In this document: positions 44,465 to 63,016 of the stretch, piece by piece
Layout of the letters: each line of letters begins with the position of its first letter
Numbering within the stretch: position 1 is the stretch's first letter
Origin: Naegleria gruberi
Taxonomy: Eukaryota
Direction: 5' to 3' (one strand)
DNA length: 64,000 nucleotides
NCBI GenBank assembly: GCA_000004985.1
Contig: GG738854.1
The notes under the pieces: model-generated
Databases searched by the model: none
What the model saw: only the letters and a program-made list of their open reading frames with translations
What the model was told of the DNA's origin: nothing
Translations under genes and position numbers: made by a program

Positions 44465-44581
44465 TCTTGATCGCAGATTGGAGAAAAATCATCTCCGATA
44501 GGAACATTGGAGATTTTATTTGTTGTCATTCATCACAATACAACATCACCAACTGTTGATCAATTTTAAAATCAAATAAAA

Positions 44582-44753
44582 ATGTCTGACTCATCAACTA
44601 GTAATGATAATAGTAATAATAATAAATTAGAAATTGAATTTAAACAAGCACAAGACTTTATTCAAAATGCACCAGCAGAAAAAGAACCATCCAATGAACA
44701 AAAATTACAATTTTATGCTTTTTATAAACAAGCAACACAAGGACAAGTTAGTG
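44582..44753 (+). CDS. Acyl-CoA-binding protein (ACBP) domain, exon 1
   Basis: ATG at 44582. Translation ...KLEIEFKQAQDFIQNAPAEKEPSNEQKLQFYAFYKQATQGQVS matches ACBP helices 1-2 including the YKQAT motif. Exon ends in phase 1 at 44753, just before GTATGT at 44754. Confidence 0.8.
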
Positions 44754-44902
44754 GTATGTTATTATTATATTGTATTCTTGTAGTATTAATATTAATAATA
44801 ATAATTAAAATTTTATTCATTGATCATGATTATCATCAACTGTCATCACACACATATTAAAATATATTATTTAAAATATATTATTAAAATGATGATAAAA
44901 AG

Positions 44903-45037
44903 GAAAGAGACCAGGTGCATTTGATATTATTAATAGAGCAAAATATGATGCTTGGAAAAAACTTGGTTCTCTAACTAAAGAACAAGCAATGAAATCATAT
45001 ATTACTACTCTTGAACAATCTTCACCTAATTGGAGAA
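44903..45037 (+). CDS. ACBP domain, exon 2 (after 149-nt AT-rich intron 44754-44902)
   Basis: Acceptor AG at 44901-44902 restores the frame. Junction codon G, then KRPGAFDIINRAKYDAWKKLGSLTKEQAMKSYITTLEQ, i.e. the ACBP KxKWDAW-type helix 3-4 region. If the gene is stand-alone, this frame runs on to a TAA at 45115-45117. I favour a donor at 45038 (see next feature). Confidence 0.65.
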
Positions 45038-45101
45038 GTTATTTTACTACAAATAATACAAATACAAATAATAACAATTCAATTACAATTAATCCCTACA
45101 G

Positions 45102-46015
45102 TGGACCGTGGTGGTAATGATAATAATAATAATTCTAATAATACAACATCAACAACAACAACAATTGGTATTATAAATAATGTAAATGATGAAATCTTTA
45201 AAAAAGATTTATTACGTGGTAAAGTAATAATTGTAACAGGAGGAGGTAGTGGTATATGTTATGGTATAACACAATATTTACAATTATATGGAGCACATAC
45301 AGCTATAATATCACGTACATTTGATAAATTAGAAAAGGCTTCAAAAGAAATTATGAAAATAGCCAATAATAATACAATATGTTTACCTGTTTCAGCTGAT
45401 GTTAGAGATTATAAAGCATTATCTAATGCATTTGATAAAGTATTGGAAAGATTTGGTAGAATTGATGTATTAATTAATGGAAGTGCTGGTAATTTTCTAT
45501 GTCCTGCTTCACATTTAACACCAGGTGGATTTAAAACTGTGATGGAAATTGATACATTTGGAACATTTAATGCCTCTAAATTAGCCTATGATAAATATAT
45601 GAAATTGAATGGTGGTGGTAATATTATAAATCTATCCATGACATTACATAATACTGCAACTATAATGCAAGTACATGCAGGATGTGCTAAATCTGCCATT
45701 GATACAATGACTAAACATTTAGCAGTTGAATGGGGATTAGATCAAGTACGTGTTAATTCAATTCAAATTGGTCCTATTGAAGGTACTGAAGGATTTTCAA
45801 GATTACTTCCACAAGATGAATTGAAAAGATATAAGGAAATGATACCACTTCAAAGATTTGGTCTACCAATTGATATTGCTAGAATGGTACTATTTTTAAT
45901 ATCAGATGCTGCCTCTTATGTTACTGGTGCTATTATACCTGTTGAAGGTGCTTCACAATTTACTACAAGTAATATTCATGGTTATCCAAATGCTTTGAAA
46001 ATGTCTAAATTGTAA
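45102..46015 (+). CDS. Short-chain dehydrogenase/reductase; peroxisomal 2,4-dienoyl-CoA reductase (DECR2)-like with C-terminal PTS1 -SKL. No ATG of its own; modelled as the 3' exon of the ACBP gene.
   Basis: TGGGSGIG-type Rossmann motif (VIIVTGGGSGICYGI). The long stretch RIDVLINGSAGNFLCPASHLTPGGFKTVMEIDTFGTFNASK...QVHAGCAKSAIDTMTKHLAVEWG...VNSIQIGPIEGTEG matches human DECR2 as I recall it. Ends ...ALKMSKL* (SKL = peroxisomal targeting signal 1). The track's start at 45011 is TTG, and no in-frame ATG precedes the domain. A strong acceptor (aatccctacag) at 45101 is in frame with a GT at 45038 in ACBP exon 2. This gives a 64-nt intron (45038-45101) and the junction codon a|tg. Confidence 0.8.
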
Positions 46016-46188
46016 ATTATTATTAAATAAATTATATAAATTATATGATTATCATTAAATATATAAATTATAATCATGATGTTTGGTAACATGAATAAAT
46101 TGAATTTTTGAAAAAAAAATAACAACACTTCATCACTACTTAAGATTTTCATCATCAAACATTTCATCAACATTATATTTCTATCGGA

Positions 46189-47078
46189 NNNNNNNNNNNN
46201 NNNNNNNNNNNNNNNNNNNNNNNNNNNNNNNNNNNNNNNNNNNNNNNNNNNNNNNNNNNNNNNNNNNNNNNNNNNNNNNNNNNNNNNNNNNNNNNNNNNN
46301 NNNNNNNNNNNNNNNNNNNNNNNNNNNNNNNNNNNNNNNNNNNNNNNNNNNNNNNNNNNNNNNNNNNNNNNNNNNNNNNNNNNNNNNNNNNNNNNNNNNN
46401 NNNNNNNNNNNNNNNNNNNNNNNNNNNNNNNNNNNNNNNNNNNNNNNNNNNNNNNNNNNNNNNNNNNNNNNNNNNNNNNNNNNNNNNNNNNNNNNNNNNN
46501 NNNNNNNNNNNNNNNNNNNNNNNNNNNNNNNNNNNNNNNNNNNNNNNNNNNNNNNNNNNNNNNNNNNNNNNNNNNNNNNNNNNNNNNNNNNNNNNNNNNN
46601 NNNNNNNNNNNNNNNNNNNNNNNNNNNNNNNNNNNNNNNNNNNNNNNNNNNNNNNNNNNNNNNNNNNNNNNNNNNNNNNNNNNNNNNNNNNNNNNNNNNN
46701 NNNNNNNNNNNNNNNNNNNNNNNNNNNNNNNNNNNNNNNNNNNNNNNNNNNNNNNNNNNNNNNNNNNNNNNNNNNNNNNNNNNNNNNNNNNNNNNNNNNN
46801 NNNNNNNNNNNNNNNNNNNNNNNNNNNNNNNNNNNNNNNNNNNNNNNNNNNNNNNNNNNNNNNNNNNNNNNNNNNNNNNNNNNNNNNNNNNNNNNNNNNN
46901 NNNNNNNNNNNNNNNNNNNNNNNNNNNNNNNNNNNNNNNNNNNNNNNNNNNNNNNNNNNNNNNNNNNNNNNNNNNNNNNNNNNNNNNNNNNNNNNNNNNN
47001 NNNNNNNNNNNNNNNNNNNNNNNNNNNNNNNNNNNNNNNNNNNNNNNNNNNNNNNNNNNNNNNNNNNNNNNNNNNNNN
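46189..47078. other. Run of N (gap)
   Basis: n from 46189 to 47078. The 370-aa all-X ORF on the - strand is an artefact of this gap. Confidence 0.99.
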
Positions 47079-47240
47079 TGGAAATATGAAACACAGAAAA
47101 AACTTGCTAAAAAACCAGCTCTTCCACTTTTATCTTATCAAACTGGAAAGAAAATTGAATGTACAAGATATGGAAATAATTCAATTTTTATTTCTTATGA
47201 AAATGAAAATTATATTGAAAAGATTGATATGAAAATTTAA
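47079..47240 (+). CDS. 3' terminal fragment of an unidentified protein-coding gene emerging from the gap
   Basis: Open frame from the gap edge: WKYETQKKLAKKPALPLLSYQTGKKIECTRYGNNSIFISYENENYIEKIDMKI*, TAA at 47238-47240. Codon usage is like neighbouring genes. It is convergent with the kinase gene 25 bp away. Confidence 0.35.
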   Translation, partial: WKYETQKKLAKKPALPLLSYQTGKKIECTRYGNNSIFISYENENYIEKIDMKI

Positions 47241-47265
47241 TACATTAATATTATTTATTATTTTT

Positions 47266-49479
47266 TTATACAATTTCATCATATTTCTTATTCATCCATG
47301 GATGTTTTAATGCTTGTCGTACATCCAATCTATCTAGAGGATCAATTTGTAAACATTGTCTTATAAAATCTACAAATTCTTCATCTTGACAATTATCTAA
47401 TTTTTCTCGAATATCTTGATTATAATCTGGTATCAATAATTCCTCATAGACATTATCATTTGGTCCAATTTGACCAACTCCTGATGGTGGAATTGTTTTA
47501 CCTGTATCTTTATCTACATATCTAAATAATACATATTCAGTTCTTCCATTAATTTTAACCTTTTTGAAAAAGTCTTTAACAAATCTTCCTCTTTGTAATT
47601 GATGTAATTTGAATGGTCCACATAAAGATAATATCTTGGCTAACATTGTCTGTATCGAATGATTGTAAAACAATACTTTGCCTGTAAACAATTCAGCTAA
47701 AATACAACCAATAGACCAAATATCAATCTTTTCATCATAATCACTTCCAATGACAACTTCAGGTGCTCTATATGTTCTTGATTGAGCATATAATGGTAAA
47801 TTATCCCATTTGAAACATGATGAACCAAAATCAATAATCTTAACTTGACATCTACTATAGGATTTGATTAATATATTTTCAGGTTTCAAATCACAATGAA
47901 TCAAATTAAGTGAATGAACAAATTGTAATGCAGTTAATACTATTTGATGATAATATCATGATTGAATTATTAGATGTTAGATGATGACCAATGAAAAACA
48001 ACTTACATTGTTGAGTAACTTTTTGAAGTCTTGGAAGATTAAAATACAATTCATCACCACTATCTCTATTGTAAACATAAAATTCATACAAGTTATCTCT
48101 TAACAATTCACAAACAATGAACAGATGTTCCTTATAATAGAAAAAGTCATGTAACTTGATAACATGGAAAGCATCTGGATCACCCATACTATTAATAAAT
48201 CTTAGTAATTTGATTTCATCTAAACTTTGATCAAAGAAATCCTTATCATTCTTAATAATCTTAATGCAAACGTTTTGATTGGTTCTTAAATCCAAACATT
48301 GAATTGCTCTGCTAAAAGTTGCACTTCCTAGATATTCAACAACTTGATATCTTTCAGCAATAATTGAATCAACTTCAATTTTGAATTCATTTGTTTCTTC
48401 GAATCCAGTTTTAAATGTTTCTCTTATAATTGGAAGATAAATAGTTTCATATTCAACTGGTGGTCTCCATTTTGTTCTTCTATCTACAACTTCTGGTGCT
48501 TCTTCTTCAATATAAGATGGAACACAATTTTGTAAAACATCTGTTTGAGAAAAATCAGTTAATCTTGAATATCCTTCATCATCACTATCACTTGCATAAT
48601 CATCATCCTTGGCATCTTTATCTGGTTTTTCCTTCTTTGTTTCTGCTGATTTTGGTTTTTCTTTAGATTCCTTAGGGTATTTATGAGCTTCAACTTGTTG
48701 TTCAAGTTCTCTCAAATCATTTTCAACATTCTTTTCAAATGTTTCATATAAATCCTCCGAAGTGAAAGGATTTGATAGTTCTACTGGTTCATCACCACTT
48801 TCATACATGTGAGCAAATTCTTGTAATTCTTTCATCAATGAGGCACTATCTGGTCTTTCATATTCATCTTCCTCAAAAGATTGTTTTGAAGTTCTAGACT
48901 GTCCTGTAAGAACTCTCTTTGCACTATTTGTTGGAGTAATTCTATGATTGTAGTGTTTTGTATCTGGTACATGATGTTGATGGTTGTAGAAATCGGAAAC
49001 TACACTTTGTACAATATCATTAACAATTTCGCATATATCATTGTATTCAGATTCAGAAACAATATTATTTACGAGGGAATATGATTTTAAAGAGTGTTGA
49101 GGAGAAGTTTGAATAACCTCTGTTGGTTCTGCTGATGTTTCCATTGTTTTAACTGTTCAATAAAATTCCGTTAATGTATTTTCAATAACTATTAGGATCA
49201 TCAACAACACTTACTACTTGATTTTAATTCTTCCATCAATTTTTCAGCTGTTTGATTTAATTTGTTCTCCCTAAGGAAGTTCAAAAAGATACCTAACATT
49301 TCTTGTTCATCATTCAACTTCTTTTCATCTAAATCATATTGTTTTAGGAATGAACTATTTGAATCTTGTGTTGTATTTAAAATATCGTCCTCTTCATAGT
49401 CTTCATATTCAGAGTCTGAATCATCTGCATTATAAGGCTCTAATTGTTGTACCTCATTAAGTGCGCTGTTGGAATACAT
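47266..49479 (-). CDS. DYRK-family-like CMGC protein kinase with acidic LisH-like N-terminal exon. Three exons: 49479-49215, 49152-48007, 47939-47266.
   Basis: Kinase motifs: VAIK-like CIKIIK, HCDLKPENILI, IIDFGSSCF, activation loop LYAQSRTYRAPEVVIG (the DYRK/HIPK Y-x-QSR-x-YRAPE pattern), C-terminal ...DFIRQCLQIDPLDRLDVRQALKHPWM. Intron 2 is 47940-48006 (67 nt), with GTAAGT on the - strand. This removes the junk tail (CKLFFIGHH...) and joins ...RLQKVTQQ to LLTALQFVHSLNLIHCDLKPEN. Intron 1 is 49153-49214 (62 nt), GTAAGT...ttattgaacag, and joins the 'separate' 92-aa ORF (49201-49479) in frame to the kinase ATG at 49144. That exon 1 carries a LisH-like motif: LGIFLNFLRENKLNQTAEKLMEEL. Confidence 0.75.
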
Positions 49480-49521
49480 TTTTTTTGATAAAATTATTTA
49501 GCAATATTTTTGTAGACTGAG

Positions 49522-49555
49522 AATGGCGCCAAATTATTTACATTGGCGCCAAAAT
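49522..49555. promoter_or_regulatory. Two palindromic E2F-type sites (TTTGGCGCCAA[A]) 45-75 bp upstream of the kinase gene's first ATG
   Basis: gaaTGGCGCCAAAtt at 49522-49535 and caTTGGCGCCAAAAtg at 49542-49555. Both contain the E2F consensus TTTSGCGC on one strand; the second is a perfect 10-bp palindrome TTGGCGCCAA. They are GC-only cores in an otherwise AT-rich spacer. Confidence 0.45.
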
Positions 49556-49867
49556 GTTATCTTTTGTTTTATAGTCTTACTCAATAAAATAAATTGGACT
49601 CTAAAAATACAAATTATGAGCTAATTGAACAAATCAGTCTTTCTTTGTTAGCCTTACTCAAACTACATATTGCCTCGACCGTAGTAATATCTCTTGGAAT
49701 TTTATAAAAAGAAACGCATACAGTTTGTCGTTGAATTGAGTAAACAACATGGCAAAAACACCAGAATTTAAAATCCTTAGAGATCTACTATTATGTCTAA
49801 TATTTAAAGATAAAGGCCTTTTGCTTGGAGCGCGTTCTAATTTTTCGTGTAACATAACAAACAACAA

Positions 49868-49938
49868 AGGGAGATAGTTCAGTGGTAGAACATGGGATTG
49901 TGGTTCCTAAGATCAGGGTTCGATTCCCTGTCTTCCTA
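49868..49938 (+). tRNA. tRNA-His (anticodon GTG), 71 nt, no intron
   Basis: Manual cloverleaf: acceptor AGGGAGA/TCTTCCT (one G-U); U8 A9; D arm GTTC-AGTGGTA-GAAC; anticodon stem TGGGA/TCCTA; loop TTGTGGT (U33, GUG at 34-36, G37); variable loop AGAT; T arm CAGGG-TTCGATT-CCCTG; discriminator A. CCA is not encoded. T5 run follows at 49943-49947. Confidence 0.85.
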
Positions 49939-49942
49939 CTCA

Positions 49943-49947
49943 TTTTT
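49943..49947 (+). terminator. RNA polymerase III terminator T-run downstream of tRNA-His
   Basis: ctcaTTTTTatttt, 5 nt after the tRNA 3' end. Confidence 0.5.
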
Positions 49948-50022
49948 ATTTTAGATTTTTCAACAATTTTATTTCAGAAATGCAACTTCAATATTTGTTG
50001 ATCTAATAATATTACAGAAAAA

Positions 50023-52106
50023 ATGTCACAACTATTAGAAAACCTCAAAGATTTATTTCCCTCCATTGACATTGAAGTAATAGAATCAGTTATTGATCAA
50101 GTTGATAATGATGAAGAGGCTGCCATTGAATTACTAGTACAAATTAATGAAGATGATGAAGATCTTGATGAAATTAACAATGTTCCGAACAATACTTTTA
50201 ATGACAAAACTAATGATGATATCAATAATGATGATGATTTATTAGAACAAGAAACTTTTGATGATCATGAATTTTCCAATCAAGTATCATCATCGTCTAC
50301 AAAAAACAAGCCTTCCTCCTCTACTACTACTACTACTTCCACTTCTAAAAGTAGTAGTAGTAAAAAATTATATCAAATACTTGATGAAGAAGGAATATTA
50401 AATGAAATTAATAATACAATGAATCAAGTTTTAAATATATTACAAATTAATAATAATAATAGTAATTTTAAATTAGAAATGATATTAAAAAACTATAAAT
50501 GGAATGTTGAAAATATTATTAGAGATTATGGTGATATTGGATTGGATGGTATTTTAAAAAAAATTGGTTTATTAAATAATTTAAATACTACTATAAATAG
50601 TAATAATAATAATAATAATAATATTACAACAACAACAATAACAACAATATGTGAATCATGTTATGAAGATAATATAGAATTAATTAAAAATATAAATTGT
50701 GAACATTCATTATGTGAATCATGTTGGAGAAATTATATAGAATCATCAATTTTACAAAATAATGGAACAAGTATTGAAAGTATTAAATGTCCATCCTATG
50801 AATGTAATTGTCTATTATTAGATGAATTTATTTTATCATTTATAACAAGTAAATATGAACATTTTCTATTAAAAAGTAAAATTAATTCATTCATGACAAA
50901 TTCACATCGAATGAAATGGTGTTCAAATAATTGTAAATTTGCAATTAAAAAGGAATGTGATGAAAATTTATATTATTGTAAATGTAAATGTGATAGAGAA
51001 TTTTGTTTTCATTGTGATCAAGATCCACATTATCCAGGTATGTTTATTTTTATTTTATTTTAATATATTTAAACTATTTAAACTATTTAAAATATTATTG
51101 TAAACTATTTAACATTACAATAACAACAATACAATAACATTACAATAACATTACAAAAATATAACAAAACATAATAATAGCAACATGTGAAATGATGAAA
51201 AGATTTATATCATTTACAAAAGAACATGAATCTAATTTAGAATATATTAAATCAACATGTCAACAATGTCCATCATGTAAAGTTTATGTTCATCGTATTA
51301 GTGGATGTGATAGTATGGTATGTGGATATTGTGGTACTAGATTTTGTTATATTTGTGGACAATCATCACATGGATATCAATCTATTTGTGTTGGACAATC
51401 TACTACTCTATTAGGAAGTAAAAAAGTTAGTGAATTTGATTTATATGTAGAAGAAGCACATGCTAGATTTAATTATAAATATAAATTATATACTAATTGG
51501 TTACAATCTCCAAATACACATTCTAATTTAATTTTTTATAATTTGGAAAATTCAGCACTTTTTGAATTTGGATATTTAAAAAATGATTTTAAAATATTTT
51601 ATTCTGCATTAAATTTAATAATTAGAACTAGAAGATTATTAAGATCATTATGTGTATTTGCATTTGTTTCATTTGGATTTGATAAATTATTAATGGAAAG
51701 TTTATTAAAAAATATTAAAAATACAAAAAAAAATAAGAAAAATAATAATACAAATATGGAACAAGATTTAACTTTATTAAAAACATTTGGATATTTATTT
51801 GATATGAATTATGAAAGATTGGAAAAATTTGTTGATCAATTACTTTCCATTTTAAGAAATTTTACACAAACACCTCAAGAAGAATTAGAAGAACAAGAAG
51901 AATTAGAAAAATTAAATTCTACTAATAATGGAAATATTAAAAATTATAGTAACATGTTTGAATTTGGAAATTCTTTATTTACACAAGAAAAACATTTAAA
52001 ATTTCATAATTTAAATTCACAAATTAAAAATCAAATGGAATTAATTGTAAAACAAACTGAAAATATTATTGATATGATTAAATCAATGGAAATGAAAACT
52101 ATTTAA
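50023..52106 (+). CDS. RBR (RING-IBR-RING) E3 ubiquitin ligase, Ariadne-like, with N-terminal CUE-like motif. Two exons: 50023-51037 and 51181-52106.
   Basis: Exon 1: N-terminal LKDLFPSIDIEVIESVIDQV...AAIELLV (CUE-like F-P / LL pattern); an Ariadne UBA-like region (ILKNYKWNVENIIRDYGD); RING1 (CESCYED...CEHSLCESCW...C); IBR (WCSNNCKFAIK...CKCKCDREFCFHCDQDPHYP). GTATGT donor at 51038 (phase 1), acceptor ...ataatag at 51180. Exon 2 follows with ATCEMMKRF... then the RING2/Rcat domain (CPSCKVYVHRISGCDSMVCGYCGTRFCYICGQ) and an Ariadne-domain-like helical C-terminus. TAA at 52104-52106. Confidence 0.85.
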
Positions 52107-52155
52107 ATAAAATTTATTTTTTATATTTAATATTTATTACCATTTTTGGAAATAT

Positions 52156-53361
52156 TTAAATATTCTTTTTATTTTCTAAAATATCATTATTAATATCAAT
52201 GGTATTATTATTATTTATATTTTGATTATTTTGATTAATATTTTGATTTGTTTGTCTAATATCATCAAAATCAAGTTTTTTAAATAATTTTCTAAAAATA
52301 ATTTTACAAATTAAATAAAACCAAAATAAATGTAAAATTAATAAAATAATTAATAAAATATTTAAAATCCAATATGGACTTATACATACTCCATTTATAC
52401 ATATACCATAATTAGATAAATCTATAAATGAATTAATATTTGAAACATTTCTAATTAAATAATATCTAGTTAAATGATCCCATCCATATTTATTAAAAAT
52501 AGATTTAAAAATTAAATATGGAAAATAAATTAATCTTTTAAATAAATAACTAATTGCAAATAAAATAAATAATAAATTTGTAATTTTTTCATTTAAATTT
52601 AATAATTTAAATACTTTTGCAGAATAAAAGAAAATATCAACTAAATCATGTAATAATAAAATTAAAGTTCCAATTCTATGATAAAATGTTAAAATACAAC
52701 CAATAATTAAAAATATTGTAACAATGTGATGAATTACAAATTGATGAAAATCTTTCATTTTCTCATCTATAAATAGTAATGTAAATAATGCTTGAATATA
52801 GAAACCACATCCTATTAATAGATATTCTCTCATATATGGATATTCAAATCCTGTATGTTCATTTGGATATCCAATATTACAATAATCAGAATTAAATAAC
52901 CATGGTGTTTCCTTTAATATTAAAATTCCAAATATAGATGATAATATATAAAAAATACAAAACCAAATATTTTCTAATATACTACTATATTTAGTACTTT
53001 TAGAATATTTTTTAATTAATTTTAAAAATATTGGTTCAATTACAAATCTTCTCATACAAAATAATAAAATTGCAATTATTAATACATTTATAGTATCTTG
53101 CATGAACCAATTATTTTTCCTATTTTCAATTGGTTCATCACTTCCAAATATCATTGGAAATAAATGTGGTGGACCCATTGTTGTTCTTGTTGAATTTGGA
53201 AATATTCTATATTGAGAATAAATATGTGTATTATTAGTACCCATTAATCCAAACCATTTATCTATAACATGATAAAATGTGTTTGAAGTAGTACATGTTG
53301 TAGTAGTTGAAGTAGTAGTAGAAATGTTATCATTGTTTTTGTTTTTTTTAAAGATGTTCAT
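52156..53361 (-). CDS. Ceramide synthase (TLC / Lag1p-longevity-assurance family), multi-pass membrane protein
   Basis: Lag1p motif with the catalytic His pair and downstream HD..D..aK: HQFVIHHIVTIFLIIGCILTFYHRIGTLILLLHDLVDIFFYSAKVF. Many hydrophobic segments. N-terminal N-x-T sequon (FPNST). Asn/Gln-rich tails. Single continuous ORF, ATG at 53359-53361. Confidence 0.85.
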   Translation of the reverse strand: MNIFKKNKNNDNISTTTSTTTTCTTSNTFYHVIDKWFGLMGTNNTHIYSQYRIFPNSTRTTMGPPHLFPMIFGSDEPIENRKNNWFMQDTINVLIIAILLFCMRRFVIEPIFLKLIKKYSKSTKYSSILENIWFCIFYILSSIFGILILKETPWLFNSDYCNIGYPNEHTGFEYPYMREYLLIGCGFYIQALFTLLFIDEKMKDFHQFVIHHIVTIFLIIGCILTFYHRIGTLILLLHDLVDIFFYSAKVFKLLNLNEKITNLLFILFAISYLFKRLIYFPYLIFKSIFNKYGWDHLTRYYLIRNVSNINSFIDLSNYGICINGVCISPYWILNILLIILLILHLFWFYLICKIIFRKLFKKLDFDDIRQTNQNINQNNQNINNNNTIDINNDILENKKNI

Positions 53362-53664
53362 TGTTGGTAGTTGAACTGTGTGCTAATGGTTGCGTGTGAA
53401 AATAATAGTGCAGCGTTGAAAAAGTTTACAATAAAATTGACCGTTGAAATTGGATTGGTGCATTGGATGTCCTGAGGACTTGAACCAAATCAACAGATTC
53501 CAAGTACTGAACATGTGTGTTTTAAATTGCAACATGCATGCAACAACATCATCCAACAACACAATCAATGTGGACCCAGTAAACAACTCCCTCTTGACAA
53601 AATGAGCGGGAACTTTTATTGTTTATTTCATGTAATATTTTAACAAACAATCAATCTTGATTTG

Positions 53665-54393
53665 TCATTGACTCATAATTGAGTCCTGTAATCCATCTAA
53701 TGTTAATTTCCATTCATTTCGTACACCTTCTGTTTCAGTGGGTCCCAACAAGTCAAGCATTGTCTGATAGCATTTGGCAAGGCAAGAGTTGTGGAAAATA
53801 CTAAGAGATTGGTCTCCACCTACTCTATATTTGGCATAGCTAAAAAGTGATATTGTAGTTTCCAAAGCTCCTTTTACCAATTCTAAATTCTTTTCGAAAG
53901 AAGACACAACAAATAGACAACATTCCACAAACTCTGACATTGGAAACTGAATTTGGGTTAGATTTGTTTCATCAAAACAAATTGTCAACTTGAAATTAGC
54001 GTTAAATTCCTTTACAAGTGTGAATGTCTTTTCAAACATATTAAATGCTTGAAACATTAGATTGTTAAAATGATCTTCGCTGCACAAGTCAGTTGGTGTT
54101 GGGTAAAGAGCATGAGTATCAGAAATTAAAGTGTAGAGAAGACATGCTGTATGAATGAGCTCTCGATAGTTGGTAGTGGTGGTTGGTGTGTTTTGTTCGA
54201 ATTGTTGTTGGAAATACAGATTGCAACGGAGTGAAGCTAAATGAAACAAGTGTATAATTTTTTCTTTGTGTTTATTCCTTTCTTGTATCAAGGACAATAC
54301 ACAATAAACATCAAGGCTTGGCGGTGAATTGGACAATAATTCTTCATCATCATCAGCTTCAAAGTAAAGCAGCTTAGTTCCATTGTGAGACAT
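53665..54393 (-). CDS. Hypothetical protein (242 aa), no family recognised
   Basis: Continuous ORF from ATG (54391-54393) with coding-like composition. N-terminal acidic stretch, Thr run. No motif I can name. Confidence 0.5.
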   Translation of the reverse strand: MSHNGTKLLYFEADDDEELLSNSPPSLDVYCVLSLIQERNKHKEKIIHLFHLASLRCNLYFQQQFEQNTPTTTTNYRELIHTACLLYTLISDTHALYPTPTDLCSEDHFNNLMFQAFNMFEKTFTLVKEFNANFKLTICFDETNLTQIQFPMSEFVECCLFVVSSFEKNLELVKGALETTISLFSYAKYRVGGDQSLSIFHNSCLAKCYQTMLDLLGPTETEGVRNEWKLTLDGLQDSIMSQ

Positions 54394-55528
54394 TTTTTTA
54401 AGAAAAGTTTTTTAACTTGCTCTAAATCGAATGGTTTGCAACCCCTTAAACTATTGAGGTTGAATTGTCCCTTATTGTTTTTTTAATAAGAAAACAATAG
54501 AGAGGAATCTGTATAATCCGAAATTGAACTATTCTCGAAAATTATCAGCAGTTGAGATTTAAAAAGCATCCATTAATCTTTCTTTTTGACATCAGATATA
54601 ATTAAACCCTTAATAGACGAACATTTCATAAAGATTAAAATCATAAAGTATATCACTCATAAATTGAAGTAAGTATTCGCTTTCTATTCCAATACTTTGA
54701 CAGTATTTCCCTCCAAATGTTGCTCATGAACACACTCAAATTTAACTGAAATTACTGAATAATTGGAAGAATCAATAAACAGTCTATATCTCTTACGTTG
54801 TTGATTCAGACCAGATAAGACGAGGATCCATTCTCAAATTAGGATGTTTATAATATTAGTTCCTTCCTTTCTTAGTGTCCAAGAACTCTATTTCAAATCA
54901 TAATGATTGAATTGGAAAAGTACTCTTTAAGAACTATCAGTTTTTAGTAGTGAACTTTTGAGTGTGATATATTTGGGCTACTGGAAAGTGATTCAACTGT
55001 GAAGTGCTTTTCAATTAATGGTATAAAAGAATGTGAAGAGTGATTTGTTACAATAAAAAGATCTTTGTAAAATAAAGAGATGATCATCAATAAAACTAGT
55101 GAGAGAACTTGAGCATTATTGACAAGGGTTGAAAGACATTCAATAAGAGCTACAGTTTACTTTAAGACTTTACTTACAAATTTAACAAATAAATAGGTTA
55201 CTATATTTGTACTTTAGGAATTCGCAATTTTCGATATCCATCTTATATACTTCCCATATTCATGTAATTTGAACTCAGGCAAGGACCCCGTATAAGAGCA
55301 CTAAATAGTATCCTTAAACGTTGAAATAATCCATCACTACTAGTCAACTTGACTTGTTTTTTAAATGCTTCGTACTTGGGCTTTTTAAAATCTCCTTAAA
55401 AAAAAGAAACAACATTTGGCTACTTACAAGCCTTTCAAAATTTCATTAGACATCAAACTACTTCTACGGAGGAGGAAAGAATTAATTGAAAATAGGATTC
55501 ATTGTAGTTTTAATTAAATTTAAATTGA

Positions 55529-56440
55529 ATGACTTTACCAAATCATCATCTTCAGCATCAGAAGGTTTATCCAATTGAAATTACAAATGAAACAACACCA
55601 TCAGCATCAGATTCTACTACTACTAGTAATGAAATATCATCAAAAGCAATTGATAAAGTCAATAGAAAGGCTTTCGTAATTGATGATTTTGATAAGAGTA
55701 TGGAATTGAAAAATGTAGATGAAAGTTTGGATGATTTTAGTTGGGTTCCAAAATCACCTTTAACCTCAAATTCTACTTATCGACCAAAATCAGCAAGGAA
55801 TAGATATGATCAGGCCTTTAGAATTGAGAATGATCTTCAAGTCTCTCCGAATAGTAATCAACAAGCCTCATACTACAAACAAGCTGCCTTCAATCATATT
55901 CTTAATAATTCAACCAATGTAAATAATAATAATGAAACAACTCAAAAGAATGATGAAAAGAGTGTTGCTAAAACTAAACCAAAATCTGCACCTCCTCATA
56001 TTAAGAGAAATACATCTGATAATAATTCTGAAAGGAAGAATCCATTTGCTATCATTAAGGGATTGTTGAATATGTGTAAAACCAAGAACCATGTCGTTGA
56101 ACATGATGAAACAAAAGAAAATATCAAACCATCATCAGCTAAAAGTAAACATTCAGAAACATGTCAGAATATTACAATTGAAAAAACTCAAGTGGTTGTC
56201 TTTGATAATAGAGCAAATAGAGAAGAACTTCCACCATCACCTCAAATGAATAGAAGAGCTAAATGTGGAGGATATGGAGATGATGATTCAAATAGAGATC
56301 AACCAATTATTGTTCCTCTATATTATCATGTAATGAATGCAGGTAATAATCCTCAAAGTAGTGAAGCTCCTAAATCCAATAATCCAAACACTAATGTTCT
56401 TGACTTGTCTGATTCTGTTTCAGATATTCAAGAATTTTAA
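55529..56440 (+). CDS. Hypothetical low-complexity, probably disordered Ser/Thr/Asn/Lys-rich protein (303 aa)
   Basis: ATG at 55529, TAA at 56438-56440. Composition is typical of dictyostelid low-complexity proteins. No recognisable domain. Confidence 0.5.
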   Translation: MTLPNHHLQHQKVYPIEITNETTPSASDSTTTSNEISSKAIDKVNRKAFVIDDFDKSMELKNVDESLDDFSWVPKSPLTSNSTYRPKSARNRYDQAFRIENDLQVSPNSNQQASYYKQAAFNHILNNSTNVNNNNETTQKNDEKSVAKTKPKSAPPHIKRNTSDNNSERKNPFAIIKGLLNMCKTKNHVVEHDETKENIKPSSAKSKHSETCQNITIEKTQVVVFDNRANREELPPSPQMNRRAKCGGYGDDDSNRDQPIIVPLYYHVMNAGNNPQSSEAPKSNNPNTNVLDLSDSVSDIQEF

Positions 56441-56518
56441 ATTGTAAAAACTCTAAGAAATAATTATCAAATATAATGTCCATATTAAATGTATGGTCAA
56501 TAAACCTAGGCATCCTTT

Positions 56519-57442
56519 TTATTGAGTATTAGAATCAGTTGGGATTGTTGCCTTTAAAATTCCACAATCAATCATTAATTTTATCAATTGAGTTGTATAA
56601 TGTGATAATGTATAAGTATTATGTGGAAGTGAATAATCAGCATAATCAATAGAAATATTATATAGATCACTAATTTTAATTTTAGCTGTATTTTGTTGAT
56701 AGGCAGATGATGGTGTTGGTGTATTTGAATCAAAATCCACAAATAAAGTCATAAAATCCTTCATTAACTCTTCAAATAAATAACAATAAGAACAAGGTGA
56801 ATATTCAACATCAATTAAAATTCCTCTCTTTTTAGTTCCATATGAATAAATTCCAACTCTAACAGTAAAATCTCCAAATTTTAAAATTTCACCTTCAATA
56901 GTTACTTTAACAAATTCTGTATAACGTTTTAACTTTTCACAAATCATATCTTTAAAATTTGTACTTGTCACTAATATTTGTTTATCCAATAAAAAGAAAA
57001 TCTTATCAATAGATTTAAGTTCTAATGAAGGAGGAACAAGATTAAAAACTTCTTTTGGTTGATTAAAATCAAAAGATTCTTGTAGTAAAGCTCCTCTAAA
57101 TTTTAAAGTATTCCAAGTTTGATTTAAATTTTGAATATGTTCCTTCTCCACTTCATCTTGTGTATATTGTACACTATGTAATTTTGTATGAGAAGTAAAA
57201 ATTGGAGGTTCTTGTGAATCTGCAGGTGCTGTATTATTAGGATTATATTCTTTAATTTCTATATAAAATTTAGGAGCATTAGGATCTAAAGTTGTTTGTG
57301 ATATTGTTGATAGTGAAGAAATTTTCTCAGCATTATAAAGCCTAATAAGAGAAAGTACTATTTTTCGGTATTCGTTCTGTACTAACTTTTCATCATTGCT
57401 ATATTCTTTAAGTTCCTTGATAAATAATTTATGATAACCCAT
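56519..57442 (-). CDS. med20: Mediator complex subunit 20 (MED20/TRFP)-like
   Basis: C-terminal block ILKFGDFTVRVGIYSYGTKKRGILIDVEYSPCSY closely parallels human MED20 [34 protein letters not shown], as I recall it. It is longer than the human protein because of Asn/Thr-rich insertions. ATG at 57440-57442. Confidence 0.6.
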   Translation of the reverse strand: MGYHKLFIKELKEYSNDEKLVQNEYRKIVLSLIRLYNAEKISSLSTISQTTLDPNAPKFYIEIKEYNPNNTAPADSQEPPIFTSHTKLHSVQYTQDEVEKEHIQNLNQTWNTLKFRGALLQESFDFNQPKEVFNLVPPSLELKSIDKIFFLLDKQILVTSTNFKDMICEKLKRYTEFVKVTIEGEILKFGDFTVRVGIYSYGTKKRGILIDVEYSPCSYCYLFEELMKDFMTLFVDFDSNTPTPSSAYQQNTAKIKISDLYNISIDYADYSLPHNTYTLSHYTTQLIKLMIDCGILKATIPTDSNTQ

Positions 57443-57608
57443 TTATATTGTTTTTGATGATGATCGTTCTATTATGTACAAAAATTAATGTATGATGAAT
57501 ACGAAGGCTTTTTGATGATGACTTTGTGAAGCCTTGTTTGATACAAAGACGTGTATTCAAATTTTTTAAAAATAAATTAAATTGCATTGGAATTTTCACC
57601 AACAAAAA

Positions 57609-57867
57609 ATGTCTGCAACAACAACAAAGAATAATAATACCTACAAATGCCAATCGATGGATGAATTTATATCTAAAACCGAAGCACTTTTTAATCAATT
57701 TCCAAATGATACACGATATGTTATGAAATTTAGTAATAAGAAAGGAAAAATGAGCTTAAAAACCACTAATGACACCTATGTTGTAAAATATTGTACAGAT
57801 CAAGCTTCCGATTTGCAACATCTTGAGAAATTAAACAATTTTGTAATGACAGTGACGACATCAAAGA
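57609..57867 (+). CDS. srp9: Signal recognition particle 9 kDa subunit (SRP9). A short 3' micro-exon (57926-57951) is possible.
   Basis: MSATTTKNNNTYKCQSMDEFISKTEALFNQFPNDTRYVMKFSNKKGKMSLKTTNDTYVVKYCTDQASDLQHLEKLNNFVM matches SRP9 (human ...WEEFSRAAEKLY..DP.K.R.V.KY....G.L..KVTDD..CL.YKTDQAQDVKKIEKF...LM). The real ATG is at 57609; the track start at 57582 is TTG. GTAAGT at 57868. Either read-through to TAA 57888-57890 (...SKLLENY*), or a 58-nt intron to acceptor AG 57925 gives ...TTSK-N-EELKAKK*. Confidence 0.75.
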
Positions 57868-58175
57868 GTAAGTTATTGGAAAATTATTGATGGATTATTA
57901 ATATGAATTTTATTCTCATCATCAGACGAGGAATTAAAAGCAAAGAAATAAATAAATTTACTAATTTAATCAGCATGAATAACACAACATCTATGCATAT
58001 TACAACAATAACATCATCAATAATATGAGTAAAGAAATGAATTTCATCATCACACAATTTTGTCTAGATAAGAAAAAGGCTTGATTTGGTGAAAAAAGGC
58101 TTTAAAAAAATTATCATCATTTAACAAGAGAATTTTCTTCATCATCAACAACAACATTATACTATTATTGATAAT

Positions 58176-59534
58176 ATGAATCGATTATTCTCTGGAGGAG
58201 GAAGACATTTTTCTCGTGCTGTTATTTACAGTGCAACATTATCATTTGTTGGAATTAACTTTTTCACCTTTTCTCATTATATTAAACATTCCTATTGGGA
58301 TAATTTACATACTTCTCCTGCACCATCAAGTGGACAATATATGCAACCACCTGAAGAAATTACAAATTCAAGCAAGGAAGAAAAATTATTCTATACATTA
58401 AAATCTAATCAATCATCATCATCTAATGGAACGAAAAAATTAATCATCTTCCTTCCTGATATTGTTGAAACAAGAGAAGTTTTCCAAGATTTGGAATATC
58501 AAATGTTACATAATCCACAAGTTAACGATCAACAAATTTATTCATTAAGATATGATAGATTTGGATATGGATATAGTAATGTTGTAAAAGGACCAAGACA
58601 TTTACATAATATGAGTATTGAATTACATACACTTATTGAACATGTTTTAAAGAATAATATTGAATTGAATGAAAATGAAAAACTTGAAATTTCACTTGTA
58701 GGTCATGGATTTGGAGCAATGTTAGCAAGAATGTATTTGTATAAATTTTCAAATACTTTTGAAAGTGAATTTAAAAATGTCAAAATTGCAAAGAATATAT
58801 TAATTTCACCACTTCATGAAAGATTTATTCAATTTTCACCATTCTATGTGGATTATCTTGTTGACTGGAAATCAAGAGGTTTTATTAATAGACTTTTATC
58901 ATTCCACGGTTTTATGGAATGGTTATTTAAATTTAATCCAAGATTTTCTTTAAAGGATGAAGTTATTTATCCATTTATGGAAACTATTGCAGATGATGTA
59001 CCAACAACAACTTGGAATGTTAAATATAATGGAACTGAAGGATCAACAGATTATGATGATGATCATTTAATTTCTAAAGATGAAGCTAAGAAGAGATTGG
59101 AATTTCATATGAGAAATGATAATTTATGGAAAACTGTTAGAAATGAAACAAATTTATTCAAGAGATCATGTGTACAATTGAATGATTGTCGTAAGAGTGC
59201 AGAGCCACACTATAAACAACAAGAACAATCAGCATCAGCAGCAACAGAACAACAACAACCAGAAGAAGCTAACACTACACAACCAATTAATACTTCCAAT
59301 ATTGATGTTCTAGTTGTTGATGTCGATCATTCAAGAGATGACGAACTTGGCAGAAAGGGAGTTAAAGTTTTCTTTGATAAGAATAGTGAATTTTCACAAG
59401 TTGATTATCTCAACGATCTTGTTGAAGGATATTCTAATAAGAGTAAGGTTATTTCACTCAATAATTATAATCACTACTCTGTATTGAATACACCTGCTCT
59501 TGCACAAACTGTAATTAACTTCCTCAAACAATAA
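58176..59534 (+). CDS. Alpha/beta-hydrolase-fold protein with N-terminal hydrophobic anchor. The nucleophile-elbow Ser is replaced by Gly (GHGFG); likely a pseudo-hydrolase.
   Basis: Typical a/b-hydrolase order: LIIFLPD..., RYDRFGYGYS (D.RG.G.S-like), then elbow LVGHGFGAMLA at 58695-58727 where GHSxG is expected. N-terminal AVIYSATLSFVGINFFTF hydrophobic segment. ATG at 58176, TAA at 59535-59537. Confidence 0.75.
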   Translation: MNRLFSGGGRHFSRAVIYSATLSFVGINFFTFSHYIKHSYWDNLHTSPAPSSGQYMQPPEEITNSSKEEKLFYTLKSNQSSSSNGTKKLIIFLPDIVETREVFQDLEYQMLHNPQVNDQQIYSLRYDRFGYGYSNVVKGPRHLHNMSIELHTLIEHVLKNNIELNENEKLEISLVGHGFGAMLARMYLYKFSNTFESEFKNVKIAKNILISPLHERFIQFSPFYVDYLVDWKSRGFINRLLSFHGFMEWLFKFNPRFSLKDEVIYPFMETIADDVPTTTWNVKYNGTEGSTDYDDDHLISKDEAKKRLEFHMRNDNLWKTVRNETNLFKRSCVQLNDCRKSAEPHYKQQEQSASAATEQQQPEEANTTQPINTSNIDVLVVDVDHSRDDELGRKGVKVFFDKNSEFSQVDYLNDLVEGYSNKSKVISLNNYNHYSVLNTPALAQTVINFLKQ

Positions 59535-60060
59535 ATAATGGAATATTTTACAACAGTACAAAGTATTCATTGTACCTTCATCTTCACTTATTCAGATCCT
59601 ATAGTGAGATGGTGGATATCAAAGTATCTGTTTTCCCAGAATAATAATGTTAAGGATGATAATTTATCTATATTTATTATCCTTTCAATAAGTCAAAAAG
59701 TACAATTCCGTAAATCTTTGCATTGTCTTTTGTTAAACCTTAATGTTTTTTGGAAAAATGCAACTACTATGAAAGATATGAAATATTACTTCAAATCCAC
59801 AGATAATGGATGGATCTTGTGTAACCTACCAATCACAAGCCTGTCTCCCAAAAAAATTATCAATGAGTTGGGCCAATTAGACAATTAGCATAATAGCTCT
59901 TTCTTCTTCTGAACTCTCTTGTCTTATTATCAGTGAAACTCTAAAGGCAACTCTAATTTTCTATAGAAAAATAGTTTAAAAAAATGGATCCACATGGCTC
60001 TTTTGTTTCATCCGAAACTTCCTTAACATCCTTCATCATCACCATTTAAAGATAAATGGT

Positions 60061-60261
60061 TCATTTGTTAAGATTTATATTACTCAATTTGTTTGTAATA
60101 TGTTGTAAAACATAACTGTCATCCTTTTCAAGACGTTTCACACTTGTCTTCTTTCTTGTTTTGTGTTGCTTGTCAATTCCATTCTTTTTTCTCTCCTCCT
60201 TTTCTCTTTCCATCTTTGCCATTAATTCCCTATATGCTGGACAAGTATCATAATACTCCAT
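60061..60261 (-). CDS. Small basic K/R/E-rich hypothetical protein (about 66 aa from the ATG)
   Basis: MEYYDTCPAYRELMAKMEREKEERKKNGIDKQHKTRKKTSVKRLEKDD... The track start at 60273 is TTG; the first ATG is at 60259-60261. No family recognised. The local sequence is less AT-rich than neighbouring genes. Confidence 0.35.
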   Translation of the reverse strand: MEYYDTCPAYRELMAKMEREKEERKKNGIDKQHKTRKKTSVKRLEKDDSYVLQHITNKLSNINLNK

Positions 60262-62875: not shown

Positions 62876-63016
62876 AGTCCCTCAAAATTTCTTTTTAAAA
62901 TAAATTTTAATTCTTCTTCTTATTAAATCGGAGTAATTTCCTATTAGGAATGAATGTTGTGATGATATTAGCAAAGGTCAAAACAAGGCTTTGAAATTTT
63001 AATTTTTATAAAAAAA

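What the first reader, a model, noticed from the sequence alone, without database searches (positions are those of the whole stretch)
49522..49555. Tandem palindromic E2F-type elements in the kinase promoter
Two copies of TTTGGCGCCAA-type sequence lie 20 bp apart, 45-75 bp upstream of the kinase gene's first ATG. The second is a perfect 10-bp palindrome. They are isolated GC-only islands in AT-rich DNA. TTTSGCGC is the conserved E2F/DP site, and the E2F-Rb pathway with this motif is present in Dictyostelium. The sites suggest cell-cycle (G1/S) control of the LisH-DYRK-like kinase, or of the adjacent tRNA-flanked region.
Basis: partly seen in the sequence, partly recalled or inferred. Interest (0 to 1): 0.5.

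Follow-up and report, generated by a model that had tools for sequence, protein, structure and literature searches.

The report
Conserved E2F sites before Naegleria kinase

Summary
TGGCGCCAAA occurs at 49524-49533 and 49544-49553, 20 bp apart. On the minus strand both copies read TTTGGCGC. They lie 45-74 bp upstream of the ATG (49479, minus strand) of a three-exon LisH/DYRK-like kinase gene. They are the only GGCGCC sites in the 18.6 kb of real sequence; the rest of the window is N.

The organism is Naegleria gruberi, not Dictyostelium.

The E2F reading still holds up:
- The orthologous promoters of N. fowleri, N. lovaniensis and a metagenomic Naegleria all carry 2-3 E2F-like boxes within about 70 bp of the ATG. 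TTGGCGCCA is the only invariant block in DNA that otherwise does not align.
- In about 135 kb and 62 gene starts from five heterolobosean genomes, the motif is otherwise almost confined to the RB gene promoter. In Willaertia that promoter has the same tandem layout (ATTGGCGCC-N5-TTTTGGCGCCAAA).
- N. gruberi encodes E2F, DP, DEL and RB, and the E2F recognition helix is identical to human E2F4.

G1/S timing, factor binding and the transcription start site remain untested. An Acrasis relative of the kinase lacks the sites.

Verdict: a real, conserved cis-element and a new member of a known kind. Interest is modest.

The parts
49544..49553 (-). Distal E2F-type box. It reads TTTGGCGCCA on the gene (minus) strand, within TTTTGGCGCCAAT. 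It contains the perfect 10-bp palindrome TTGGCGCCAA (49543-49552). It lies 65-74 bp upstream of the kinase ATG.
   Evidence: It aligns with the invariant TTGGCGCCA block of the four orthologous promoters.
49524..49533 (-). Proximal E2F-type box. It reads TTTGGCGCCA on the gene strand, within AATTTGGCGCCATT. It contains the 8-bp palindrome TGGCGCCA. It lies 45-54 bp upstream of the kinase ATG.
   Evidence: Orthologues carry a second, more degenerate box at the equivalent proximal position: Nf TTTGGGCGGGAAAA and Nl TTTGGCGGTAAAA.
49538..49542 (-). TGTAA pentamer (gene strand) in the spacer between the two boxes. It is present between the boxes in all four orthologous promoters. Its status is uncertain.
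   Evidence: A 5-mer shared by all spacers arose in 0.16% of spacer shuffles, or 2.4% when N. fowleri and N. lovaniensis are counted as one lineage.
49215..49479 (-). Exon 1 of the LisH/DYRK-like kinase gene, the presumed target of the boxes. It holds the ATG at 49479 and encodes the conserved LisH-like segment QEMLGIFLNFLRENKLNQTAEKLMEEL.
   Evidence: Splice model. Full-length alignment to the N. fowleri and N. lovaniensis proteins. Weak LisH_TPL hit, E = 0.003, below the Pfam cut-off.
48007..49152 (-). Exon 2 of the kinase gene: the N-terminal region and the first half of the kinase domain.
47266..47939 (-). Exon 3 of the kinase gene: the rest of the kinase domain (HCDLKPEN, LYAQSRTYRAPE) and the stop codon.
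   Evidence: (Pkinase E = 2e-51).

Best explanation
The two boxes are binding sites for the Naegleria gruberi E2F family: the E2F-DP heterodimer, possibly competing with the atypical DEL/E2F7-8-like protein. They sit in the core-proximal promoter of a LisH/DYRK-type kinase gene.

Inferred mechanism: each GGCGCC core, with its T-run on one side and A-run on the other, is read by the RRXYD recognition helices of two winged-helix domains. When the pocket protein RB is bound to E2F, the gene is repressed. When RB is released in proliferating or G1/S cells, E2F-DP activates the gene. Two sites about two helical turns apart near the transcription start would give cooperative or redundant occupancy.

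Shown here: the sequence match, conservation at the orthologous position in four Naegleria lineages, rarity elsewhere, the same tandem architecture at the RB gene promoter, and the presence of the cognate factors.

Inferred only: actual binding, the sign of regulation, and cell-cycle timing.
For: 1. Consensus match. Both boxes read TTTGGCGC / GCGCCAAA. This fits TTTSSCGC and the E2F-family consensus GCGSSAAA quoted in PMC4862756.

2. Phylogenetic footprint.
- N. fowleri has TTTGGCGCC plus TTTGGGCGGGAAAA.
- N. lovaniensis has ATTGGCGCCAAAA plus TTTGGCGGTAAAA.
- A metagenomic Naegleria (72% protein identity) has GTGGCGGGAAG, ACCCGCCAATT and CTTGGCGCCAAAT.
- All lie within about 70 bp of the ATG.
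- In the MAFFT alignment of the four promoters, the only invariant block apart from the ATG and the A-run just before it is TTGGCGCCA.

3. Specificity. In 134,901 bp from five heterolobosean genomes there are 11 strand-hits of TTTSSCGC:
- 6 in the kinase promoters.
- 2 forming one palindromic site in the Willaertia RB promoter.
- 1 upstream of an MGMT-like repair gene.
- 1 at the 5' end of the Willaertia E2F gene.
- 1 inside a kinesin coding sequence.
Of 62 gene starts surveyed, the strict motif within 200 bp upstream occurs only at the kinase (4 of 4 Naegleria), the Willaertia RB gene, the MGMT-like gene, and their divergent neighbours.

4. Positive control. RB is a classical E2F target in animals and plants. 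The Willaertia RB promoter reads ATTGGCGCCttttaTTTTGGCGCCAAA, 20-46 bp before the ATG. The Naegleria-sp. RB promoter has TTCCCGCC plus CCCGCCAAAAAA, 12-42 bp before the ATG.

5. Trans factors.
- N. gruberi E2F is P0121, with E2F_TDP and CC-MB domains.
- DP and DEL sequences come from the supplement of PMC4862756, with Pfam confirmation here.
- RB is P0247, with RB_A and RB_B domains.
- The E2F DNA-binding domain aligns to human E2F4 of the DNA complex 1CF7 at E = 7e-25, with [24 protein letters not shown] identical.
- PMC4862756 states that the RRXYD motif contacts the GCGC core.

6. The boxes follow the kinase gene, not its neighbours. The upstream neighbour is tRNA-His plus a CUE-RBR gene in N. 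gruberi, but an LRR gene in N. fowleri and N. lovaniensis, and those loci have no tRNA.
Against: - No binding, expression or transcription-start data exist for this gene. It appears to be unannotated in N. gruberi.
- The spacing between boxes is not conserved: 20 bp here, about 25-29 bp in N. fowleri and N. lovaniensis, and 17-18 bp in L003.
- The Acrasis kona relative of the kinase has no E2F-like box in 420 bp upstream of its LisH exon.
- The N. lovaniensis E2F gene has none in 400 bp upstream.
- Canonical S-phase genes (MCM, PCNA, RNR) could not be fetched, so genome-wide enrichment is untested.
- The background sample is only about 135 kb.
- N. fowleri and N. lovaniensis are close relatives, so there are about three independent lineages, not four.
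Confidence: 0.7

Rival explanations
1. The boxes are bound mainly by the atypical, DP-independent E2F (NgruDEL, E2F7/8-like). This protein has two DNA-binding domains and acts as a repressor, so the kinase is shut off in S/G2 or during differentiation rather than induced at G1/S.
For: - N. gruberi encodes a DEL protein with two E2F_TDP stretches.
- The boxes have T/A-run flanks on both sides (TTTTGGCGCCAAT). From general knowledge, this resembles the TTCCCGCCAAAA-type sites used with E2F8; the E2F8 structure 4YO2 appeared as a hit.
- The variants in the orthologues (TTTGGGCGGGAAAA, CCCGCCAATT) are of the CCCGCC type.
Against: Sequence alone cannot separate E2F-DP sites from DEL sites; in animals and plants both classes bind the same elements. 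Nothing here favours DEL over E2F-DP.
Confidence: 0.15
2. The boxes are a conserved GC-rich palindrome recognised by an unrelated Naegleria transcription factor. They may also act as a kinase-specific composite element together with the TGTAA spacer motif. The resemblance to E2F sites is coincidental.
For: - Naegleria promoters are essentially uncharacterised. Literature searches found no described cis-elements.
- A TGTAA pentamer lies between the boxes in all four kinase promoters but not in the RB promoters.
- The E2F gene's own promoter in N. lovaniensis lacks the motif.
Against: - The conserved core plus flanks fits the E2F consensus at 8-9 positions in every lineage.
- Degenerate versions vary exactly as E2F sites do (GGCGCC, GGCGGG, CCCGCC with T- or A-runs).
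- The same tandem motif marks the RB promoter, a hallmark E2F target.
- The E2F recognition helix is unchanged from human.
Confidence: 0.1
3. The boxes belong to the other side of the intergenic region. They would be an upstream element of the tRNA-His gene (49868-49939) or of the divergent CUE-RBR ubiquitin-ligase gene (ATG 50023).
For: The 388-bp interval between the kinase ATG and the tRNA gene is shared by these units. In N. lovaniensis and L003 the intergenic region is short enough for the boxes to lie within 200 bp of the divergent neighbour as well.
Against: - The boxes are 315 bp from the tRNA and 470 bp from the RBR ATG, but 45-74 bp from the kinase ATG.
- Orthologous loci have no tRNA and different upstream neighbours (an LRR gene), yet keep the boxes next to the kinase.
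Confidence: 0.03
4. The boxes are a chance occurrence or a neutral local duplication with no function.
For: Short motifs do recur by chance, and the window offers only 18.6 kb for statistics.
Against: - Shuffles give P = 0.007 to below 0.001.
- Only the 10-mer is repeated; the flanks differ.
- The block is invariant at the orthologous position in lineages whose intergenic DNA is otherwise unalignable.
- My rough estimate: about 5 strand-hits per 135 kb outside the kinase promoters gives about 0.3% chance per 75-bp promoter, or roughly 1e-8 for three independent lineages.
Confidence: 0.02

Closest known systems
Tandem or palindromic E2F sites of animal G1/S promoters (for example the overlapping inverted TTTCGCGCCAAA of DHFR, and the paired sites of the E2F1 and p107/RBL1 promoters). 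This comparison rests on general knowledge.
   Same: - Same consensus (TTTSSCGC / GCGSSAAA).
- Palindromic core with a T-run on one side and an A-run on the other.
- Two sites close together, within about 100 bp of the gene start.
- The cognate factor carries an identical RRIYD recognition helix.
   Different: - The organism is a heterolobosean amoeba.
- The target is a LisH/DYRK-type kinase, not a replication gene.
- Binding, RB dependence and the transcription start site are unknown here.
Plant E2F cis-elements (TTTCCCGC / TTTGGCGG types in PCNA, RNR, MCM and RBR1 promoters). This comparison rests on general knowledge.
   Same: - Same motif variants as in the Naegleria orthologues (GGCGGG, CCCGCC, GGCGCC).
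- RB/RBR itself is a target, as the Willaertia and Naegleria-sp. RB promoters suggest.
- The kinase's best non-heterolobosean matches include many plant DYRK-family proteins.
   Different: I know of no evidence that plant DYRK-type kinases are E2F targets. The lineage here is unrelated to plants.
   Same: - A protist with E2F, DP and an Rb orthologue repressing S-phase, mitotic (including kinesin) and repair genes.
- The off-target motif hits seen here, next to a kinesin and an MGMT-like repair gene, fall in those same gene classes.
   Different: The window is not from Dictyostelium. Amoebozoa and Heterolobosea are very distant groups.
Atypical E2F7/E2F8/DEL binding sites (E2F8 structure 4YO2).
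   Same: GC core with flanking T/A runs recognised by two winged-helix domains. N. gruberi has a DEL homologue.
   Different: DEL proteins are repressors and act without DP. The sequence cannot tell which family member occupies the boxes.
Fungal SCB/MCB elements bound by SBF/MBF.
   Same: These are the functionally analogous G1/S cis-elements. Their sequence partly overlaps E2F sites: CGCGAA versus GCGSSAAA (PMC4862756).
   Different: SBF/MBF are fungus-specific KilA-N-type factors. E2F prefers G at the position before the CG, as here (GGCGCC). This is not the system in Naegleria.

Membership tests
E2F/DP-family binding site (cis-element class) | Sequence matches the E2F consensus TTTSSCGC / GCGSSAAA | tested here: met
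   Both boxes read TTTGGCGC on the gene strand and GCGCCAAA on the + strand. The consensus is quoted in PMC4862756.
E2F/DP-family binding site (cis-element class) | Located in the proximal promoter of a protein-coding gene, close to the transcription start | tested here: inconclusive
   The boxes are 45-74 bp upstream of the first ATG, and no in-frame upstream ATG is available. The transcription start itself is unknown because no transcript data are available.
E2F/DP-family binding site (cis-element class) | Cognate factors (E2F, DP, pocket protein) are encoded by the same genome, with the RRXYD recognition helix intact | tested here: met
   - N. gruberi E2F is P0121.
- DP and DEL come from the supplement of PMC4862756.
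- RB is P0247.
- Pfam domains are confirmed.
- The DNA-binding domain aligns to E2F4 in 1CF7 with an identical RRIYD helix.
E2F/DP-family binding site (cis-element class) | Conserved at the orthologous position in related species beyond neutral expectation | tested here: met
   N. fowleri, N. lovaniensis and a metagenomic Naegleria all keep the boxes. TTGGCGCCA is the only invariant promoter block. The boxes are not found in the Acrasis kona relative.
E2F/DP-family binding site (cis-element class) | Rare in background sequence and over-represented at cell-cycle genes of the same lineage | tested here: inconclusive
   - The motif is rare in about 135 kb and 62 gene starts.
- It is present in tandem at RB promoters.
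- It is absent from the N. lovaniensis E2F promoter.
- Replication genes and whole genomes could not be scanned with these tools.
E2F/DP-family binding site (cis-element class) | Physical occupancy by E2F/DP (EMSA, ChIP, DAP-seq) | not testable with these tools
   This needs an experiment.
E2F/DP-family binding site (cis-element class) | Target gene shows RB/E2F-dependent or cell-cycle-periodic expression | not testable with these tools
   I found no Naegleria cell-cycle transcriptome. The gene appears to be unannotated in N. gruberi.
DYRK-family protein kinase (the target gene) | Protein kinase catalytic domain with closest relatives in the DYRK family | tested here: met
   - Pkinase E = 2e-51.
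- Named hits include 'dual specificity tyrosine-phosphorylation-regulated kinase' of Acrasis, 'DYRK-family kinase pom1' and 'ppk5-like'.
- The activation segment reads LYAQSRTYRAPE.
   The LisH_TPL hit has E = 0.003 and 17.7 bits, below the 30.7-bit cut-off. However, the segment QEMLGxFLNFLRxNxLxxTAxKLxEEL is conserved in all four orthologues, and a similar segment is encoded upstream in Acrasis.

The most novel reading that the evidence does not exclude
The E2F/RB module of Naegleria directly controls a DYRK-family kinase through the same tandem-box promoter architecture that it uses on the RB gene itself. In animals, DYRK1A drives assembly of the RB-family/E2F DREAM repressor for quiescence (general knowledge). 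A conserved link from E2F to a DYRK kinase in a heterolobosean could therefore point to an ancient feedback loop between DYRK kinases and the RB-E2F switch. Such a loop might govern the choice between growth and differentiation or encystment. The boxes would also be the first defined cis-regulatory element in Heterolobosea, including the pathogen N. fowleri.
Probability: 0.12. Interest if true: 0.55.

Novelty: new member of a known kind. Interest (0 to 1): 0.3.

Why it matters
E2F sites are textbook elements, so the kind is not new. Three things make this instance useful.

First, almost nothing is known about promoter elements in Naegleria, and I found no paper describing E2F sites there. A short box that is phylogenetically footprinted upstream of the same gene in N. 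gruberi, N. lovaniensis and the pathogen N. fowleri gives a concrete handle for testing whether RB-E2F control of proliferation, inferred for the last eukaryotic common ancestor, really operates in Heterolobosea.

Second, it nominates a DYRK-type kinase, alongside RB itself, as a conserved member of that regulon.

Third, the kinase gene appears to be missing from the N. gruberi annotation.

Tried and rejected
- Dictyostelium origin: rejected. Six window ORFs were looked up by exact sequence; five are exact N. gruberi proteins (NAEGRDRAFT_64533-64538) and one is not in the collection. The kinase's best hits are Naegleria.
- The tool's own shuffles include the 45 kb of N, so I redid them on real bases only.
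- Fetching the N. gruberi E2F and RB loci failed; they are not on record.
- A chimeric RB+DEL+cyclin A query, meant to retrieve several control genes in one search, returned only RB homologues.
- The E2F gene's own promoter as a positive control: no site in N. lovaniensis. In Willaertia the only nearby hit lies 45 bp inside the annotated coding sequence and is uninterpretable.
- The third RB contig (L011) has only 41 bp of upstream sequence and is uninformative.
- Two metagenome scans for more kinase orthologues gave nothing usable: none, then one 26%-identity relative.
- The Acrasis kona relative has no E2F-like box. Its annotated start is also truncated, with the LisH exon lying upstream.
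- Rfam found only the tRNA in the real sequence, so there is no evidence that the intergenic region hides an RNA gene.
- Literature searches for Naegleria E2F sites or promoter motifs found no prior description.
- I considered and rejected three other identities from general knowledge. An NFI site needs a 5-bp spacer and NFI is metazoan-specific. An Sp1 GC box uses a metazoan factor and would fit only the N. fowleri variant. A CHR/CDE element is excluded because there is no TTTGAA nearby.

Full report
**What is in the sequence.** Only 44465-46188 and 47079-64000 of the window are real bases; the rest is N. At 49520-49556 the + strand reads agaATGGCGCCAAATtatttacaTTGGCGCCAAAAtg. The 10-mer TGGCGCCAAA occurs twice, at 49524-49533 and 49544-49553, 20 bp apart. 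On the minus strand both copies read TTTGGCGC. TTGGCGCCAA (49543-49552) is a perfect 10-bp palindrome, and the other copy contains the 8-bp palindrome TGGCGCCA. These are the only GGCGCC and the only TTTSSCGC sites in the window. Dinucleotide-preserving shuffles of the real bases alone give:
- TTTSSCGC: 0.12 expected against 2 observed (P = 0.007).
- GGCGCC: 0.08 strand-hits expected against 4 observed (0 of 1000 shuffles).
- Within the 388-bp intergenic region alone: P = 0.0002.

**Gene context and organism.** The gene to the left is on the minus strand. I built a three-exon model (49479-49215, 49152-48007, 47939-47266; GT-AG introns) that encodes 694 aa. The protein has a kinase domain (Pkinase E = 2e-51). 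It also has a weak LisH-like hit, which is below the Pfam threshold but conserved among orthologues. The named relatives are DYRK-family kinases. The best hits are:
- Naegleria fowleri, 74% identity.
- N. lovaniensis, 73%.
- A metagenomic Naegleria, 72%.

Five of the six other window ORFs that I looked up are exact matches to N. gruberi proteins NAEGRDRAFT_64533-64538 on a 665-kb scaffold. The window is therefore Naegleria gruberi, not Dictyostelium. The kinase itself has no N. gruberi entry among the hits, although N. gruberi proteins are in the database. It is probably unannotated, and it abuts the assembly gap at 46189-47078.

To the right lie tRNA-His (49868-49939, +) and a CUE + RING-IBR ubiquitin-ligase gene starting at 50023.

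**Conservation.** I fetched the orthologous loci and read their promoters:
- N. fowleri: aaaaTTTGGCGCCatcaaattgtaagtgTTTGGGCGGGAAAAc, ending 32 bp before the ATG.
- N. lovaniensis: gaATTGGCGCCAAAAgaagaacttgtaagtgTTTGGCGGTAAAAt, at the same position.
- The metagenomic species: GTGGCGGGAAG, ACCCGCCAATT and CTTGGCGCCAAAT, within 52 bp of the called ATG.

In a MAFFT alignment of about 160 bp upstream from the four species, mean column identity is 50%. The only invariant block, apart from the ATG and the A-run just before it, is TTGGCGCCA.

The upstream neighbours differ: an LRR gene in N. fowleri and N. lovaniensis, and tRNA-His plus the RBR gene here. The other loci contain no tRNA. The boxes therefore travel with the kinase gene.

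The footprint has a limit. The Acrasis kona relative has a LisH exon lying upstream of its annotated start, and no E2F-like box in the 420 bp upstream of that exon.

**Specificity.** Across 134,901 bp from N. gruberi, N. fowleri, N. lovaniensis, the metagenomic Naegleria, Willaertia magna and Acrasis there are 11 strand-hits of TTTSSCGC:
- Six in the four kinase promoters.
- Two forming one palindromic site in the Willaertia RB promoter.
- One 46 bp upstream of an MGMT-like repair gene.
- One 45 bp inside the annotated Willaertia E2F coding sequence.
- One inside a kinesin coding sequence.

Of 62 gene starts surveyed, the strict motif within 200 bp upstream is found only at the kinase (4 of 4 Naegleria), the Willaertia RB gene, the MGMT-like gene, and the genes that share those short divergent intergenic regions. 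It is not a generic Naegleria promoter element.

**The factors exist.** The supplement of Medina et al. 2016 (PMC4862756) contains N. gruberi E2F, DP, DEL and RB sequences.
- The E2F sequence is 100% identical to an NCBI N. gruberi protein. It has orthologues in N. lovaniensis, N. fowleri, Willaertia and Acrasis.
- RB is annotated in N. gruberi and present in N. fowleri and Willaertia.
- Pfam confirms E2F_TDP + CC-MB, E2F_TDP + DP, two E2F_TDP stretches (DEL), and RB_A + RB_B.
- The N. gruberi E2F DNA-binding domain aligns to human E2F4 from the E2F4-DP2-DNA crystal 1CF7 (E = 7e-25). The segment [24 protein letters not shown] is identical.
- PMC4862756 states that the invariant RRXYD motif contacts the GCGC core and gives GCGSSAAA as the family consensus. 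That consensus matches GCGCCAAA in both boxes.

**Positive control.** RB-family genes are classical E2F targets in animals and plants (general knowledge). In Willaertia the RB promoter reads ggATTGGCGCCttttaTTTTGGCGCCAAAtactcaattaaattaaaaaaATG. That is two GGCGCC boxes 15 bp apart, 24-44 bp before the ATG, almost a copy of the architecture in the finding. In the metagenomic Naegleria the RB promoter has TTCCCGCC and CCCGCCAAAAAA about 20 bp apart, 12-42 bp before the ATG of the first exon. The other stray hits lie next to a kinesin and an MGMT-like repair gene. These fall into gene classes reported as Rb/E2F targets in Dictyostelium and elsewhere (PMC3386910). The E2F gene's own promoter in N. 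lovaniensis lacks the motif.

**Most likely mechanism.** The boxes are E2F-family sites in the core-proximal promoter of the LisH/DYRK-type kinase. E2F-DP, and possibly DEL, binds each palindromic core through the RRXYD helices. RB bound to E2F represses the gene, and release of RB in proliferating cells allows activation.
- Shown: motif match, conservation, rarity, shared architecture with RB promoters, and presence and conservation of the factors.
- Inferred: occupancy, the sign of regulation, and G1/S timing.

I put about 0.9 on 'functional conserved cis-element', about 0.7 on 'E2F-family site working as described', and about 0.5 on G1/S periodicity specifically.

**Rivals.**
- DEL-dominated repression cannot be separated from E2F-DP binding by sequence.
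- An unrelated factor recognising a GC palindrome is disfavoured by the pattern of variants and by the RB control. It is not excluded, and the TGTAA pentamer between the boxes in all four kinase promoters hints at a composite element.
- An element serving the tRNA or the RBR gene is disfavoured by distance and by loss of synteny.
- Chance is excluded by the conservation.

**Comparison and novelty.** The boxes resemble the paired or palindromic E2F sites of animal G1/S promoters and the E2F boxes of plant promoters. They meet every membership criterion that sequence analysis can test. Binding and expression criteria are untestable here, and genome-wide enrichment remains open. I found no publication describing E2F sites or any promoter motif in Naegleria. 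This is a new member of a known kind: sound, conserved, modestly interesting, and mainly useful as an entry point to RB-E2F control in Heterolobosea and as a pointer to an unannotated kinase gene.

Noticed in passing
window 1-44464 and 46189-47078: 71% of the window is N: a 44.5-kb run and an 890-bp gap. Only 18,646 bases are real sequence. The tools' built-in shuffle expectations for the whole window are therefore diluted.
   Followed up: yes
window 47266-49479 (-): The LisH/DYRK-like kinase gene has no N. gruberi protein among its homologues, although five of the six neighbouring ORFs looked up match NAEGRDRAFT_64533-64538 exactly. It is probably unannotated in the reference, perhaps because it abuts the 890-bp assembly gap. 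An ENA metagenome contig (L004) encodes a 99% identical fragment.
   Followed up: partly
window 49538-49542 (TTACA on +, TGTAA on the gene strand); L001 about 5950, L002 about 5953, L003 about 359: A TGTAA pentamer lies between the E2F-like boxes in all four orthologous kinase promoters, but not in the RB promoters. A shared 5-mer arose in 0.16% of spacer shuffles, or 2.4% when N. fowleri and N. lovaniensis are counted as one lineage. It may be a second half of a composite element, or chance.
   Followed up: partly
L009 9955-9980 (Willaertia magna) and L007 652-683 (metagenomic Naegleria): The RB gene promoter carries tandem E2F-type boxes (ATTGGCGCC-N5-TTTTGGCGCCAAA, and TTCCCGCC...CCCGCCAAAAAA). 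In both species it shares a short divergent intergenic region with a kinesin gene, so this looks like a conserved RB-kinesin bidirectional pair.
   Followed up: partly
L006 15210-15217 (Willaertia magna): TTTGCCGC lies 46 bp upstream of an MGMT-like (PF01035) DNA-repair gene, in a 110-bp divergent intergenic region. It is the only other promoter hit of the strict motif in the sample.
   Followed up: no
L010 5087 versus the annotated start 6001 (Acrasis kona): The annotated Acrasis 'DYRK' protein (519 aa) seems truncated. An ORF about 900 bp upstream encodes a LisH-like segment (ILPAIIQFLRENNLYKTELALLEEL) homologous to the Naegleria N-terminus. There is no E2F-like box in the 420 bp upstream of it.
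   Followed up: partly
window 49868-49939 (+): A tRNA-His(GTG) gene sits alone between the divergent kinase and CUE-RBR genes. No tRNA is present at the orthologous loci of N. fowleri, N. lovaniensis or the metagenomic Naegleria, so local synteny upstream of the kinase is not conserved.
   Followed up: yes
window 50023-52106 (+): The right-hand neighbour is a CUE-domain + RING/IBR (RBR-type) E3 ubiquitin-ligase gene, split into at least two ORFs (50023-51063 and 51192-52106) by an apparent intron.
   Followed up: no
window 56519-57442 (-) and L001/L002 1-343: Med20 (NAEGRDRAFT_64535) lies about 7 kb from the kinase in N. gruberi. Med20 also lies about 6 kb upstream of the kinase in N. fowleri and N. 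lovaniensis, but with different genes in between. The region shows partial synteny with local rearrangement.
   Followed up: no
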